Assembly: GCF_006345805.1 (NCBI RefSeq)
Contig: NC_043013.1
Location: 30,938,001 to 31,002,000, forward strand
DNA length: 64,000 nt
DNA from: Octopus sinensis
Taxonomy: Eukaryota
Direction of reading: 5' to 3'
Positions 6,006-61,339 of the stretch are shown one piece after another. Under the pieces are notes generated by a model. The model searched no databases. It was given only the letters and a program-made list of their open reading frames with translations, and was not told the DNA's origin. The first letter of the stretch is position 1, and every line of letters begins with the position of its first letter. The position numbers and the translations under genes are program-made.

Positions 6006-6499
6006 GTTATTGGCGCAAAATAGATAGTCACGTGATATTAACGCACGGACCGAGTGGGAAACCTATAAAAATTTCTGAGATTACTACTAATTGCGTTATC
6101 TTGCTATATTTCATTCGACAAATAAACTTCAGACAGGTTTGATGCTAGACATCGTCACTAGACATGTTCACTCAAGCGTTACAATTTTAACTAACGGCGC
6201 CAAAGATATTGCGACATAATACTAAATGATGGACGTAGCACGGAACTTATAAAAGTTTCCAAACCTGATCACGTAATCATCCTAGACCCATTAAAATGAA
6301 TGCAAAACAGGTACTAATTTTAGCCATGTTCTGTATAAAAACAGGGAAAATTTTGAACTCCATTCAGGAGCAATCAGTTGCAGCAAATCTCCACGTCTAT
6401 CGCATATTTGAATATCAGGGAAATCTTCGAAACGAATCCCAGTGCATTTTCAAATTCTTTTTCTACATATCTGCTCTTGTAGAATAGAATGACTTCGTT

Positions 6500-6583: not shown

Positions 6584-6680
<97 letters not shown>

Positions 6681-12153: not shown

Positions 12154-12384
12154 TGACTATCGAGTAATGTAACATATTATTGTATAGATAAATTTCCTTT
12201 ATTTACATAATATTGATGTCTCTTTTTTTCTTTTGTTATCTTACGGTTTTACCAATATATATATATACGAGAAAGAAGCAACAAGAATGGATTAGTTTTT
12301 AGTACAATTGTTTCATACAAAGACAGGCTTTATTAAAAGTTGCAAATATTGCAGCAGATAAAGTTGCAAATATTGCAGCAGATA

Positions 12385-13853
12385 AAAGATAAGGCAGGAT
12401 ACAACCAAAAGATTACATTTATTGATAAGGAGAACTTAGATATTCCTAATAAAGAAGTTACCAGTAATCACGTAAGCAGCAATATAGACCGGGCCCGAAA
12501 TAGAAGTAGAAGTAGATTCACGGTAACCACAAATCTAGCGTACAAGCCCAATAATACAAATAGAAGCATAGACCAAAGCATAGGTAACTCGGATAAAATC
12601 AAATTAGATAAATCAAAGATGCATACAAATAATGGTAATAAATACAATGACTCTGGTGATAAGAATAGTAATAATTCAACGAATCCTGATTTTAATTCAA
12701 GGAAATTTAATAAGAAAGATATAATATGGCTGAATATTCCTTTCAACTGGCCGATTCAATCGGATATACAGAGCAAATTCAAAGTAATTCTAGAAACAAA
12801 TTTCCCAATCTCTCATAGATATCATAGAATTATTTCTAAAAAAACAGTTAGGATTTCTTATTCAACCCTCCCAAATATGTCCACTTTAATAGCTAAGATT
12901 AATAATAACAACATTAAGCTAGCCAGGACAGATAAAAATAAAAATAATAATACCAACATGAATACCAATAACAATTATAATAATACTACCAACAATAAAC
13001 GCAACAATAGTAACTATCAAAACATGGGTGGAATCAGTAACCACATAATGACTAATAATAATATTAATATTAATAGGAGTAATAATAATATTGATATTAA
13101 TAGAAGTAATAATGTTAATAATAGAAGTAAGGCTAATAGAGAAAATACAGAGAGTGAAAATATCAGTGATATCTATAACAACAATATACATGCAGATAAA
13201 AATACTAGCAATAATAGTAACAGTACCAATAATGTAAATAATCATGTTGGACTTTAGACCTAAAGGATGGAGCAGAAGGATCAATAAATAATAACAATGC
13301 TTTAGATAACAGCACCAACTATAAAAATAATAATAATAATAAAGATAATTATACTCATGATAATCAAAATAACAGGAACATAAGACGTCTATCCATGAAT
13401 AATCCAACATCTGAAGTTGTTCCTCCTGCGTGTAAGTGTAAAATTAAGTCAAAATGCCCGGCACCTGGTCTATGCGGGGTAAACAACGTAATCTATAAAT
13501 GTACCATATCTACTGAGAATAACAATTTTTTTTACATTGGTTGTACGATAAATTTTAGAGATAGAGTTAGAAACCACGTCTCATCTTTTAAATTACGTCA
13601 TAAAGCTGGTACCACCACACTTTCAAATAAGATCTGGGAACTCAAAAATAATAATAGGAATTATAACCTTAAGTGGGAAATAGTTAGAAGAGCAATGCCG
13701 TATAAAAATAACAGGGTAGGTTGCCAACTCTGCTCCATGGAGACGTTTGAAATTCTAAAGCATAGAAAAAATAAGGGCTTGTTAAATAACCATATTGAAT
13801 TAGGTCAAGTTTGTGTCCACGCAAAATTGAAGACTCTAAAATATGTTACATGA
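12385..13853 (+). pseudogene. Penelope-like ORF remnant: RT-thumb end, Asn-rich linkers, GIY-YIG endonuclease; one frameshift near 13242-13257
   Basis: CKC..KCP..GLC..NVIYKC..FYIGCT.NFRDR..NH..SF..TTLS.KIW..LKWEIV..CQLC..E..LLN..EL..CVH. The endonuclease frame is open from 13242, overlapping the end of the upstream ORF. Confidence 0.85.
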
Positions 13854-40206: not shown

Positions 40207-42335
40207 ACATTCGAAGTAATAGAAATAGCAGTCAAATCTCTCTTAACTCAAATTTACTGATGCTAGTGAAGCCGATTCTAAGATCTTAGTATCTTGAAAA
40301 AGAATGGTTACTTACAATTTAGACACGCTTAGTGATACTTCTACCAGAAGAAGTGTGCCGCAGGTCTACTATCAGTAACAACTTATGAAGTTTTTGTTTT
40401 TTAATTCTATTTATTTTCTGAAATGCAATGATATCCCCATTATGATTTATCATAAGTTATTGCCAGGTCGCTTCAAGCTATCAGTTTTCTCTCTTCCATG
40501 TCAAAGCCTGTGTAATTCCACTTTGATAATTTTTCTCTTTCATTTCAATAAAAAATTGTGTATAAAGTTCTATATTACTTAATGTTCCCGTTAGAAAATT
40601 GTTTTGGAGTGTGACCTTGATTCAGTTCAGTCATTATTTATTGTGCTATATGACTATTTCCGACATTTTTTACAATCCTAGTATTCCCTTGTTCACAGTG
40701 GTCTGTTAAGGTCGAGTACATCATATTTGGTGAAACAACAATTCCGGGTACTTTAATGTTATTCACAAATCTACCAGGCTGTAAATGCAATCTCATAGCT
40801 TTAGACTTGTTGAAATAGTTCTGTTTCACTGCGTACATGCATGGGGTGTTGTGTGCTGTATCAACCGTCTTTTGACTGTCTATATGAAGTTGTTTGAGTT
40901 ACCTGCTTCTTTACGCGTTGTTACTCGAGCATTTCACAGATACTCATACTCTTAACAAGTTAATGAGTTGTGTGACATATCTGGGCTGTACCTATTAATT
41001 TACGATTACAGTCGACTCGACCGACTACTATGCAGTTTCCTAAGACTCACTTTTGTAAAGACAAAAGTCTATAAAAGTTCCATTTCCCCACATTGTCACG
41101 CGCTTGTATTGAAATCGGGAACATAGGACACGAAGCGAACTTCATAATCTTTCGGCAATAACTCATTTGCACACACACACACACAAAAAAAAACACACGC
41201 ACACACATAAATACACATATATTCATTGATAAATATATGTGTGTGCGTGTGACTGCGTATGTATGTAAGTGTGTGTAACGTATGCAAACTCAATAGTAAA
41301 TGTATGCAAATTAATTGCCGTATCATCATGAAACAGAGCATAAAGGATCGATATTCGCAGCAATTTTCAAAACGAAGTGCGTTCTCACTTGACCAGAGTT
41401 GATTAATATTAATTCTTTAGGATCTGCTTGCCCCATTTTCCCTGAAAATGTCATTTTAATTAAAAATAGTCGTATGCTTATTTAATTATGCGCGTTAGCA
41501 CTGAACAATTTTGTTGCATGTGGATGTTTTACGGAAGCAATTTTCCTCTGTGATTATGAATTCAAAATGCTTCTTTCAGTTATTTATATCTCTATAGAAA
41601 TGAAAACATCTGATGCTAACCTTACAACAAATTCATCAATAAATCTAGATTTTAATTAATCATGAGAAGATCCGCGGCTATTTAATCCCACAGCTGAAAT
41701 TTTAATTTGATCACAGCTGCTCCCCTTCCTTTGGAATATTTAGAGCACTTGCTGATTCCATGACAAGCTATTACGTGTCAGCATTGACGGTTTAGACAAG
41801 CTATGTGTTAGAACAATTCAGTCGCTAAATGAATTACATATTCACAAAGCATTTCCCCCAAAAAGTAGACGCACACGCGCACATAAAACTTGACGAACAT
41901 ACACACACCGTCTGTAGCTGAGTATTTGTAAATGACAAATGCTGTAGTAGACAGAGTCATTACAGTGTTGACGGAAATACCTTTCTGTGTGTGTGGGGGG
42001 TGTGCGTGTTCTGGCGTTCTAACTTGTAATTTCAAATTTATCATGGACTTTGGTTTCCATCCTTCTCATATCTATAAAATAAGGCACTAATGAAAGATAG
42101 AACTCCGTTTAAGACAAGTCAAGCTCTGCCAAAATAGAGTCGTCATTGTACAACGGAAACCGAATCTACGCTCAGTTGTGAAGATGTAATATAATATGAA
42201 GCAACACGCGGATTGGGTTATATTAACTTATAAATTACCTGTCTGTATCAACCAATATGACTGCTAACACACAGAGGAAGAGTTGCACACAATGCACATA
42301 CACACAAACACGATTTCCTTCTCTCTGTCTCTGTA

Positions 42336-43042: not shown

Positions 43043-44649
43043 CAGTGGCTGCCAAAATGTTCAGAACGGCATTGTTTTCGTCAGAAAAGTAGATATAAGT
43101 TTTTATCAAAGTTGTTCTATATTCTATAACTTTCACAGACAATAAATACGATAGTAATTATTATTGCCTGAGATTTTGGTGTAATTTGAGAGGATAATAC
43201 AAAAATTATGGATGATTTAGGGATTTACTGCAAAACCCATGGCGGCCAAAATGATCATAACGGTTGCTTTTACTCCGTGTTTTAGTATATTTAACCGGCG
43301 AATTCTAATGTTTTGAATTTGTTTACGTGACGGTTCGTTTACTAAACATTAGTAAGAATATTTGCAGTGTACTTTGTTAATATAATGCCACTTACTCCGT
43401 TACCAATTCGTCAGCAGATTATTAAGCTTCGAAGGAAGAATAATTTAAGTATTGGATCTATTGCAAAGATTGTTAACAAGTCAAAAGGTGTTGTACTTGG
43501 TATTCTTAAGGTCTACGATGATTGTGGTTCGTGTGAAGCAAGAAAGTTTACAGGTAGGCCAAGAAAAACGACCAAGAGAGAAGATCGTGCTATGGTAAAG
43601 TTGGTTAAAAAGGACAGATTTAAAACTGCTGCTGCTGTTTATCGGAAAATGAGCATTGTATTGAAGAAAACTTTATCTCGAAAAACTGTGTCTCGTCGTT
43701 TAGTTGAACATGACCTACAAGCAAGAGCACCTGCAGTGAAGCCACTGATCAGCTCCAAGAATAAAAGTGTCGTCTTACCTTTGCAACCAAACATGTGTTG
43801 TGGTCTCAAGAAAAATGACAAACGGTGCATTTCAGTGATGAATCTAAGTTTATGTTATTTGGCTCAGATGGGAAAAGGTACGTTCGTAGAAAAGTAGGTG
43901 AAAAATTGTCGCCTAAATGCCTTAAGACTAGTGTTAAATTCGGTGGAGGAAGTGTCATTGTTTGGGGAATGATATCTGGAAATGGTGTGGGCCCTTTGGT
44001 GCGATTACATAGAAAGGTAAATACAGGAGTTTATAAACAACTTGTAAAAGATCATATCTTGCCGGTGCTGAGAATTTCAACTAAGCGACCACCCATATTC
44101 ATGCAGGACAATGCCCATGTCACAAGGCTAAGGTGGTCATGAACTTCCTTAAGGCTGAAAAGGTTATTGTTATGGATTGGCCTGCTCAAAGCCCAGATCT
44201 CAATCTTATTGAAAATGTATGGCATATGCTAGGAGAACGTTCGAAAGCCAGAAATCCTAACACAACTGAGCAATTATGGAATGCCCTTCAGGAAGAATGG
44301 ATAAGATCACCCAGTAAGAAATTGAAAATTTAGTTTCCTCATGCAGTCAAAGATGTCAGTGTGATTGAAGCTAAAGGGCTTCACACTAAATATTAAATAA
44401 TTCCAGTCATTTTTGATTATTTTGTTATTTTTTTCAACCGTTCTGATCATTTTGGCCGCTATGGGTTTTGCAGTAAATCATCCATAACTTTTGTATTATC
44501 CTCTCAAATTACACCAAAATCTCAGACAATAACAACTAATATTGTGTTTATTGTCTGTGAAAATTATAGTATATAAAACTACTTGATAAAAATTTATTCT
44601 TACCTTCCTGACGAAAACAATGTCGTTCTGAACATTTTGGCCGCCACTG
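43043..44649 (+). mobile_element. Full-length Tc1 (DD34E) transposon, IR/DR-type long TIRs, TA target duplication
   Basis: TA|CAGTGGCTGCCAAAATGTTCAGAACG...CGTTCTGAACATTTTGGCCGCCACTG|TA; TIRs ~43043-43266 and ~44435-44649. Confidence 0.95.
43385..44396 (+). pseudogene. Frameshifted Tc1 transposase
   Basis: GRPRKTT, HFSDESKF, KFGGGSVIVWG, FMQDNA, DWPAQSPDLNLIENVW split across frames. Confidence 0.92.
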
Positions 44650-57115: not shown

Positions 57116-57166
<51 letters not shown>

Positions 57167-57360
57167 GAGTGTATTTTAACCTTGTTAACAATTAACACGG
57201 AAAAAATAAATATATAGTCACCAGGGTAGCAAAAATCACACAAGTAAAGATCTTGTAACTCCTTGTTTATAAAGGTAGAAACTTCGTGTTTACGTTGAAT
57301 ATTTTGAATAATATATGAATAAATTAATGGAGTTTAACGCAGGTGTAATCAAATATTTTT

Positions 57361-57446
57361 ACTTTCGACACATGTTTCGAAAATTCCACTGATACTATTC
57401 AAAAGAATAAATGGTATAAACAATGCAATCTTCTCCCCAGGAAAGT
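57361..57446 (-). ncRNA. Type I hammerhead ribozyme, left-arm copy (A6G core mutation)
   Basis: ACTTTC-CTGGGGA-GAAGATTGCATTG..CAGTGGAATTTTC-GAAA-CATGT-GTC-GAAAGT. Confidence 0.75.
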
Positions 57447-57628
57447 GAAAAAAGCGAAACTTGTCAATAAGACATTTTAGCAAAAAATTATGGATTTGTA
57501 TAGCGATAGACAGAACGCTATTAATATTGTTTAAAAAAACGTTATATGATATAACGTCATAAGTAGCTAACAAAAAGAGTAGGAATACCAATAGTGAATG
57601 TTAAATACATAGGAAATTAAAGTTTAAA

Positions 57629-57768
57629 TTATATATAATTTAAACTTTAATTTCCTTTATATATAATTTAAACTTTAATTTCCTGTATATATAATTTAAA
57701 CTTTAATTTCCTTTATATATAATTTAAACTTTAATTTCCTGTATATATAATTTAAACTTTAATTTCCT
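57629..57768 (+). repeat. Five tandem 28-bp units (T/G)TATATATAATTTAAACTTTAATTTCCT
   Basis: Units start at 57629, 57657, 57685, 57713 and 57741; first base T,T,G,T,G. Confidence 0.93.
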
Positions 57769-57932
57769 TTATATTTAACATTCACTATTGGTATTCCTAT
57801 TTTTTTTGTTAGCTACTTATGACGTTATATCATATAACGTTTTTTTAAACAATATTAAAAGCGTTCTGTCTACCGCTATACAAATCCATCATTTTTTGCT
57901 AAAATGTCTTATTGACAAGTTTCGCTTTTTTC

Positions 57933-58018
57933 ACTTTCTTGAGGAGAAGATTCCATTGTTTATACCATTTATACTTTTGAATAGTATCAGTGGAATATTC
58001 GAAACATGTGTCGAAAGT
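57933..58018 (+). ncRNA. Type I hammerhead ribozyme, right-arm copy (C3U core mutation)
   Basis: ACTTTC-TTGAGGA-GAAGATTCCATTG..CAGTGGAATATTC-GAAA-CATGT-GTC-GAAAGT. Confidence 0.75.
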
Positions 58019-58112
58019 AAAAATATTTGATTACACCTGCGTTAAACTCCATTAATTTATTCATATATATATATATATATTAATGTAATATGTGACAATT
58101 ATTCAGCAGTCA

Positions 58113-60673: not shown

Positions 60674-61339
60674 TAAAAATGGTAAATAATTTTCCTGTGG
60701 TTTTTCATGTAACCAACAATTATTTACCGGTAAATTTCGGTATGTAAATACGACAAAATAATTGTCAAGACCTTTGTAAGGTTCAGTATATAGTAAAGAA
60801 AAATAAGTTGGCTAGCAGCAAGCTGTTTCGCCTCATACCGAAGGAATTAGAAATGGCAGTCAAAGACCGTTTTTTTCCATTTCTATAAGTGGAGGTTCCA
60901 AAAACGAAGGCCCTTGCGGCTCACATACACAAAACCGGAGTGGCAAATACACGAATTCAGTCACTTACCGTTAATAGCGAACACGGTGTTTTGGTTTTAA
61001 CATCTGCGCACTTCCCCCCACTATCTGATGTCGCTGGGTCAGAAGTGAGGGCTGGTGGCATTTCATAAAGCTAACGAATATAGCGCTGATGAAGGAATTC
61101 AAACTCACCCTTTTTTTTATATGTTTGTGATCCAGAAACACCGTGTTCGCTATTAACGGTAAGTGACTGAATTCGTGTATTTGCCACTCCGGTTTTGTGT
61201 ATGTGAGCCGCAAGGGCCTTCGTTTTTGGAACCTCCACTTATAGAAATGGAAAAAACGGTCTTTGACTGCCATTTGTAATTCCTTCGGTATGAGGCGAAA
61301 CAGCTTGCTTCTAGCCAACTTATTTTTCTTTACTATATA
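60674..61339. mobile_element. Young fold-back element: ~204-bp inverted arms, 144-bp spacer, one-sided extension
   Basis: Arms 60787-60991 and 61136-61339 differ by 2 substitutions and 1 indel by eye; TA flanks. Confidence 0.85.

What the first reader, a model, noticed from the sequence alone, without database searches (positions are those of the whole stretch)
57311..58068. Giant hairpin with twin hammerheads carrying complementary core mutations
Seen: both ~320-bp arms contain a full type I hammerhead with a perfect 6-bp stem I (ACTTTC/GAAAGT), a ~13-bp stem II, GAAA, short stem III and a GTC site. The left core is CTGGGGA and the right is TTGAGGA, so the inferred ancestor is canonical CTGAGGA. 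The stem II mismatches are also complementary between arms. Either strand's transcript would contain one ribozyme and its antisense. Whether loss of both cores reflects selection or drift cannot be judged from one locus.
Basis: partly seen in the sequence, partly recalled or inferred. Interest (0 to 1): 0.75.

Follow-up and report, generated by a model that had tools for sequence, protein, structure and literature searches.

The report
Head-to-head Penelope ends with decaying hammerheads
This palindrome is two cut-short ends of a common Penelope-type jumping gene joined back to back, and the single base changes in their predicted self-cutting RNA motifs are likely ordinary random decay, since across the family these motifs mutate no faster than the DNA around them.

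Summary
The palindrome and both type I hammerhead motifs are real: 327-bp arms, 12 mismatches, cores CTGGGGA and TTGAGGA. They are two 5'-truncated pseudo-LTRs of a Hydra-like Penelope retrotransposon, joined head to head in (TA)n, a layout already described for these elements. The rest fails. The stem II mismatches are not complementary, because the G·G mismatch is the family state. Core positions mutate at the flank rate (14 observed, 14.0 expected). None of 23 unbiased other pairs has both cores hit, and one or two double hits are expected genome-wide by chance. The antisense arm would bury even an intact ribozyme. Side results: 370 of 716 copies carry a derived U4C core (CCGAAGA), including the youngest lineage, and 54 of 56 classifiable pairs join one tailed and one tailless arm, which favours priming from both target strands. 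This scan has already noted two-armed insertions and variant cores on other DNA.

The parts
57117..57155 (.). (TA)n target microsatellite, left side
   Evidence: sequence; 35 of 50 tail ends in the family are followed by (TA)3+
57156..57310 (-). 3' tail of the left arm (150-155 nt beyond the pLTR end); corresponds to L031:6445-6594
   Evidence: blastn to full-length copy L031
57311..57637 (-). Left arm: tailed 5'-truncated pLTR of the Penelope-like element
   Evidence: 95% to L031:6116-6594
57361..57446 (-). Type I hammerhead motif, core CTGGGGA (A6G at 57437, private); stems in the family state
57623..57646 (.). Inversion junction centred on the element-internal palindrome ATTATATATAAT
   Evidence: the same palindrome context stands in 61 full-context matches among fetched loci (overlapping loci not removed)
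57631..57770 (+). Five 28-bp tandem units (T,G,T,G,T variants) of the pLTR 5' end; unique to this locus
   Evidence: a genome-wide pattern finds 4 matches, all in this window
57742..58068 (+). Right arm: tailless 5'-truncated pLTR, ending at the fixed pLTR end (L031:6444)
   Evidence: 95% to L031:6118-6444
57933..58018 (+). Type I hammerhead motif, core TTGAGGA (C3U at 57939, private); private stem II changes at 57953, 57973 and 57997; predicted cut after 58012
58069..58080 (.). (TA)n target microsatellite, right side
   Evidence: sequence; 55 of 65 tailless ends in the family are followed by (TA)3+

Best explanation
The palindrome is one insertion of a Penelope-like retrotransposon, two 5'-truncated terminal repeats joined head to head in a (TA)n run, likely made by reverse transcription primed from both strands of the cut target, and its two hammerhead cores were likely damaged afterwards by neutral point mutation. 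[quoted passage not shown] Inferred: the endonuclease nicks both strands of (TA)n, each 3'-OH starts cDNA at one of two fixed RNA sites 150 nt apart, both cDNAs stop early, and they join at a short self-complementary stretch. The 28-bp units probably arose later by slippage. A read-through transcript of either strand is predicted to fold into a ~320-bp hairpin that buries the sense hammerhead, so killing the cores would bring no benefit.
For: Full-length copy L031:3260-6594 with direct pLTRs 2864 bp apart and RT/EN reading frames. Motifs DKT, FDI, PMG...D, YRDD, FYIG, CxxC, CxH. Nearest Atlas clusters score 0.94-0.97, several carrying RVT_1 (40-49% of members) or GIY-YIG (21-47%). Architecture: 54 of 77 inverted junctions join one tailless and one tailed arm, 2 tailed-tailed, 0 tailless-tailless, 21 unclassifiable; 54 of 56 classifiable against 28 expected, p=2e-14. 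The tailless arm reaches further 5' in 35 of 54 and the arms do not overlap in 19 of 54, which copying one arm from the other cannot give. Drift: private substitutions 14/1712 at 11 core positions against 297/37182 in flanks, Fisher p=0.89, base-matched expectation 14.0 (166 copies); 11/1178 against 217/24924, p=0.75, in the 114 copies from loci found with the 5' core left free. Pairs with both cores: 28 with none hit, 3 with one, 1 with both (the window) of 32. The window's arms differ at 12 of 319 sites, the highest count among same-subfamily pairs. In the 758-nt fold 82 of 86 hammerhead bases pair with the other arm, and forcing the hammerhead costs about 105 kcal/mol. The layout matches PMC3846280, PMC8557442 and PMC11167929.
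Against: Given its own 4+8 private changes, a hit in both cores has a prior chance of only 1-3% at this one locus; it is ordinary only as one of an estimated ~130 such pairs, an extrapolation from 18 pairs per 100 listed matches. Selection acting on this locus alone cannot be excluded by family statistics. The test has 14 core events, so a shift under about twofold would be missed. This junction lies on a palindrome and by itself fits fold-back self-priming equally well. No intact ORF was found in the three full-length copies checked. Stem covariation is weak (35-57 of 500 shuffles reach the observed values for pairing and two-sided changes). Pfam and PDB sequence searches gave no RT or GIY-YIG hit.
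Confidence: 0.88

Rival explanations
1. Both cores were inactivated under selection, for example because self-cleavage would cut a host transcript running through the locus.
For: Two different core lesions in one insertion have a 1-3% chance given the arms' mutation counts; this is the only double hit among 32 pairs.
Against: The window pair was picked for this feature. Core rate equals flank rate, and 0 of 23 unbiased other pairs are doubly hit. The antisense arm is transcribed first and is predicted to sequester the ribozyme. Metazoan PLE hammerheads cleave poorly alone (PMC4209133), and the Anolis one needs its protein (PMC11167929).
Confidence: 0.05
2. Same element and same drift, but the inverted arm was made by fold-back self-priming at the internal palindrome rather than by a second primer.
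For: The junction sits exactly on ATTATATATAAT. The arms are sister tips and share variants. Self-priming at junction palindromes was proposed in PMC3846280.
Against: Family-wide, a copy of the tailed arm cannot reach further 5' than its template (35 of 54 do), a copy of the tailless arm cannot gain the tail, and 19 of 54 pairs do not overlap.
Confidence: 0.2
3. A functional host non-coding RNA or autonomous ribozyme replicon (retrozyme- or viroid-like hairpin) with paired sense and antisense ribozymes.
For: A long near-perfect hairpin with a ribozyme motif in each arm.
Against: Every part maps onto the end of a protein-coding PLE. The hammerheads are inverted, not in tandem. The arms decay at or above the family rate.
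Confidence: 0.02
4. The A6G change is a fossil of A-to-I editing of the element's double-stranded RNA before reverse transcription.
For: A6G is A>G on the sense strand; earlier notes of this scan report such cases in other genomes (unchecked).
Against: The change is in one arm only. Only 2 of the 4 private left-arm changes are A>G, and none of the 8 on the right. The family spectrum shows no strand bias: 34 A>G at 89 A sites against 46 T>C at 130 T sites.
Confidence: 0.03

Closest known systems
Hydra clade of C-terminal EN+ Penelope-like elements, incl. Hydra-1_Obim (PMC8557442; passages, section 11 and supplementary rows read)
   Same: Unit under 3 kb, C-terminal GIY-YIG domain, DKT motif, CxxC and CxH near the C end, no CCHH seen, (TA)n target, hammerhead in the pLTR; Penelope-13_HM is listed with an inverted 5'-truncated copy at its 5' end. 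RT motifs line up by eye with Hydra-1_Obim.
   Different: No CxCX5C linker; RWL instead of RWK; the hammerhead differs from that of Hydra-1_Obim and has a 13-bp stem II with a distal hairpin (about 55 nt against 10-25 nt in the listed Hydra motifs); the tail is 150 nt rather than the usual 30-40; half of the copies carry U4C.
Inverted pLTR structures of Adineta vaga Penelope elements (PMC3846280; passages read)
   Same: Head-to-head inverted pLTRs, a tail on only one of them, palindromes at the inverted junction.
   Different: Interpreted there as self-priming; the arm statistics here favour two primers. No target-site duplication can be read in (TA)n.
PAc Poseidon element of Anolis (PMC11167929; parts 1-2 of 4 read)
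   Same: Two fixed RT start sites bounding the tail, nicking and extension of both strands of AT-rich DNA, hammerhead dispensable for insertion in vitro.
   Different: Other clade; its hammerhead overlaps the ORF start and its two start sites are adjacent rather than 150 nt apart.
Metazoan PLE type I hammerheads (PMC4209133; parts 1-2 of 4 read)
   Same: Type I, short stem III with a (near-)palindromic loop suited to dimer cleavage, long stem II, motif pairs 100-700 bp apart on opposite strands, high sequence variability.
   Different: Longer stem II; no U4C-dominated family in the parts read.

Membership tests
EN+ Penelope-like element | Single ORF with PLE-type RT | tested here: met
   DKT, FDI, PMGSSDSAQ, YRDD in L092/L128 frames; Atlas neighbours with RVT_1; Pfam itself gave no hit; no uninterrupted full ORF seen
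EN+ Penelope-like element | GIY-YIG endonuclease domain | tested here: met
   SIY...FYIG...R...H at the C end; Atlas neighbours with PF01541 in 21-47% of members; below Pfam detection
EN+ Penelope-like element | Direct pLTRs flanking the ORF | tested here: met
   L031, L032, L129, L130
EN+ Penelope-like element | Inverted 5'-truncated copy and tail at one end | tested here: met
   54 of 77 junctions; the window itself
EN+ Penelope-like element | Hammerhead motif in the pLTR | tested here: met
Hydra clade of PLEs | Length under 3 kb, C-terminal EN, (TA)n target | tested here: met
   2864-bp period; TA flanks
Hydra clade of PLEs | DKT motif; CxxC and CxH around the EN end; CCHH absent | tested here: met
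   QSDKTGNLY, CLLC, CKH; absence of CCHH judged by eye
Hydra clade of PLEs | RWK motif | tested here: inconclusive
   RWL at the matching place
Hydra clade of PLEs | CxCX5C linker upstream of the EN | tested here: not met
   no match in L128 or L092 frames; so filed as Hydra-like, not as a member
Hydra clade of PLEs | Placement in the RT phylogeny | not tested
   reference proteins were not available as stored sequences
Type I hammerhead ribozyme (window copies) | Stems I, II, III in type I order | tested here: met
   91.5% of cells paired, against at most 50% for slid controls; covariation not beyond shuffles
Type I hammerhead ribozyme (window copies) | Intact core CUGANGA...GAAA...UH | tested here: not met
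   A6G left; C3U without A8 compensation right; the subfamily majority is intact
Type I hammerhead ribozyme (window copies) | Self-cleavage after the NUH site | not testable with these tools
   no raw RNA reads were offered
Non-LTR retrozyme | Non-coding tandem direct monomers each with a hammerhead | tested here: not met
   inverted arms that continue into a coding ORF in longer copies

The most novel reading that the evidence does not exclude
The family is a natural experiment on whether Penelope elements need their ribozyme. A master lineage acquired U4C in the catalytic core, then mostly C11.1U and partly a broken end of stem I, and went on to produce the most numerous and youngest copies. 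Self-cleavage would then be dispensable, or even a brake, for transposition in vivo, while two fixed priming sites 150 nt apart, one per target strand, build the inverted insertions.
Probability: 0.35. Interest if true: 0.5.

Novelty: new member of a known kind. Interest (0 to 1): 0.2.

Why it matters
The locus itself is ordinary retrotransposon debris, and the question it raised (selection or drift on both cores) is answered in favour of drift. The family matters modestly more. The role of the PLE hammerhead is open (PMC8557442; dispensable in vitro in PMC11167929), and here canonical and U4C subfamilies of one element sit side by side, with the variant one younger, so cleavage rate can be set against amplification success. 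The one-tailed, one-tailless rule (54 of 56) is a genome-scale footprint of two-strand priming.

Tried and rejected
Rfam: no hammerhead hit. My loose hammerhead scan of the window was not exhaustive and missed even the two motifs in question, so it says nothing about absence. Pfam on 4 ORF pieces and PDB on 1: no RT or GIY-YIG hit. Single-arm RNA folds gave z of -1.6 to -2.6, and only the left arm's centroid showed stems I and II together. Covariation on 27 distinct rows did not exceed shuffles. Expression: no RNA holder listed; four guessed-RNA contig sets hold family pieces but cannot show ends or cleavage. ADAR signature: none. Telomerase-like reiteration as the source of the 28-bp tandem: rejected as a family trait, since it occurs only at this locus and its T/G alternation suggests a later 56-bp duplication. 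Two-template (mixed-subfamily) pairs: 2 of 32 were scored as mixed; one pair are sister tips (probable CpG reversion) and the other is not a joined junction, so they are not used as evidence. Literature searches for Penelope+twin priming+inverted, Penelope-like+hammerhead+octopus, hammerhead+U4C+catalytic core and hammerhead with C3U or A6G listed no paper on this family; I found no measured rate for C3U or A6G, and their harm is taken from general knowledge of the core. A sequence look-up in earlier findings returned nothing.

Full report
Observation. The sequence shows a long inverted repeat: 57311-57637 read on the minus strand aligns with 57742-58068 with 12 mismatches and no indel. Each arm holds a type I hammerhead layout: stem I ACTTTC/GAAAGT, a 7-nt core, a 13-bp stem II closed by a further hairpin, GAAA, a 2-bp stem III around ATGT, and GTC ending at 58012 in the right arm. 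Rfam does not report the motif.

What it belongs to. A search of the window's genome (G000, 2.72 Gb) with the right arm gave 2381 candidates; 40 were scored and yielded 45 matches, the near-full-length ones 94-96% identical apart from the query itself. [quoted passage not shown] Motifs DKT, FDI, PMGSSDSAQ, YRDD, FYIG, CxxC and CxH are present. The nearest Atlas clusters score 0.94-0.97, several with RVT_1 or GIY-YIG in 21-49% of members; Pfam and PDB sequence searches were blank. So the arms are pseudo-LTRs of an endonuclease-bearing Penelope-like element. It has most Hydra-clade marks listed in PMC8557442 (section 11) but lacks the CxCX5C linker, and its hammerhead differs from that of Hydra-1_Obim. 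I call it Hydra-like. None of three full-length copies checked has an intact ORF.

Anatomy of the insertion. The right arm stops at 58068 (L031:6444). Both ends run into (TA)n. The two ends are fixed in the family: 55 of 65 ends at 6444 and 35 of 50 ends at 6594 are followed by TA repeats. Of 77 inverted junctions in the fetched loci (79 found, 2 scaffold duplicates dropped), 54 join one tailless and one tailed arm, 2 join two tailed arms, none joins two tailless arms, and 21 have an arm cut by a locus edge, deletion or truncation. That is 54 of 56 against 28 expected (p=2e-14). The tailless arm reaches further 5' in 35 of 54, the tailed arm in 16, with 3 ties, and in 19 the arms do not overlap. 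Junction overlaps or gaps are mostly 0-5 nt (68 junctions). Copying one arm from the other cannot give this pattern; two separately primed cDNAs can. This agrees with the two RT start sites and two-strand extension shown for the Anolis element (PMC11167929, parts 1-2 of 4). The head-to-head layout with a tail on one arm and a junction palindrome is described in PMC3846280 (passages), which reads it as self-priming. At this locus the junction lies on the element's own ATTATATATAAT, so this one case fits either route. The five 28-bp units after the junction occur nowhere else in G000.

Are the lesions complementary, and are they selected? Among the nearest copies C3 is in 29 of 32 and A6 in 32 of 32, so CTGAGGA is ancestral for both arms; the arms are sister tips (93/83) in the CTGAGGA group. 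But G at 57953, which makes a G·G mismatch in stem II, is in 31 of 32 copies, and T at 57997 in 30 of 32. The left stem II is therefore the family state, and the right arm carries both changes. Against the nearest copies the right arm has 8 private changes and the left 4. For the rate test 175 copies were collected, 7 assembly duplicates dropped and the 2 window arms set aside; pattern-fixed positions and 4 nt at each alignment end were excluded; 'private' means a letter seen in at most 2 of 118 insertion clusters. Core positions show 14 changes in 1712 sites, flanks 297 in 37182 (p=0.89), and the base-matched expectation is 14.0. In the 114 copies from loci found with the 5' core left free the result is the same (11/1178 against 217/24924, p=0.75), and 12 of 103 complete cores carry a lesion. 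Of 32 minus/plus pairs with both cores, 28 have none hit, 3 one, and only the window both. Leaving out the window and 8 pairs chosen for intact 5' cores, the count is 20, 3 and 0 of 23. At 12 in 103 per arm a double hit is expected in about 1.4% of pairs. Eighteen pairs lie among the first 100 of 716 matches, which extrapolates to about 130 pairs and one or two double hits genome-wide (my arithmetic). Against this, the single-locus chance is 1-3% and the test rests on 14 events. Selection would also lack a target: in the predicted fold of either strand 82 of 86 hammerhead bases pair with the other arm, forcing the ribozyme costs about 105 kcal/mol, and the antisense arm is transcribed first. 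No A>G strand bias was seen.

Family-level side result. With the flanks fixed and the 7-nt core free, G000 has 716 matches: 370 CCGAAGA (U4C), 280 CTGA[AG]GA and 66 others. Sister families (one 73% identical) give 600 matches to a pattern with position 4 free, and all 100 listed have U4, so U4C is derived. A tree of 101 rows covering at least 290 nt, rooted at the midpoint next to the sister-family row and with the bootstrap not fully settled, nests most U4C copies inside the canonical ones. Subfamily C (U4C, GUA site, fully palindromic loop III) is one clade at 100/97. Its copies are the closest to each other: median nearest-neighbour distance 0.0083 (n=39) against 0.0157 for A (n=35) and 0.0146 for B (n=19), p<=1e-4. 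In C, 34 of 47 also have C11.1U and 20 of 47 a broken last pair of stem I. Variable columns are as dense in the hammerhead (7 in 86 nt) as outside (18 in 241). Against loss of function: U4C lowers activity in vitro yet supports viroid infectivity (PMC3088659, passages); GUA is a valid site; and the loop III change should help dimer pairing. Stem pairing is kept across families (91.5% of cells, against at most 50% when slid), but covariation does not exceed shuffles. Expression and cleavage could not be examined.

Comparison and verdict. Opposite-strand hammerhead pairs 100-700 bp apart from truncated PLEs, low activity and high variability are reported in PMC4209133 (parts 1-2 of 4). The bioRxiv preprint 10.64898/2026.07.22.740005 (passages only; its supplements were not seen and may list related pLTRs) links animal retrozymes to pLTRs. 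Five literature searches listed no paper on this family or on a U4C PLE lineage; the library is incomplete. Unchecked notes of this scan describe one-arm-per-fixed-end insertions and variant cores in other families and genomes. The finding is a new member of a known kind; the 'complementary mutations' are most likely coincidence. Hammerhead numbering and the expected harm of C3U and A6G are from general knowledge, not from a call.

Noticed in passing
G000-wide; e.g. L047:1439-1527 (-), L063:1440-1527 (-), full-length L129:991-4174 (-): The U4C core (CCGAAGA) is the commonest form of this family (370 of 716) and marks its youngest clade; the change creates a CpG, and some copies appear to have reverted (CTGAAGA) or decayed (CCAAAGA) by deamination.
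   Followed up: yes
window 60787-61339: A second inverted pair (arms 98-100% complementary) in a TA-rich tract. One arm has an intact-looking type I hammerhead at 61080-61153 (+): ATAGCG, CTGATGA, GAAAC-ACCGTGT-T, CGCTAT. Probably a young insertion of another Penelope family.
   Followed up: partly
window 12337-13853 (+): Broken frames of another Penelope-like element: 26-37% identical to the family protein, weak GIY-YIG hit E=9e-4, below the Pfam cut-off.
   Followed up: partly
L139-L158, L163-L172: Sister Penelope families (about 73% pLTR and 55-76% EN identity for the nearest; 3944 candidates) keep CTGATGA and the long stem II fold, and also form inverted pairs.
   Followed up: partly
window 43346-43897 (+): Tc1/Tc3-type transposase fragment (PF01498, E=4e-12).
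   Followed up: no
window 41559-41645 (-): Loose hammerhead-like match (TTGATGA...GAAA) from a permissive scan; may be chance.
   Followed up: no
L094, L131: Whole two-armed insertions duplicated in tandem about 0.9-1.1 kb apart; local duplication or assembly artefact.
   Followed up: no
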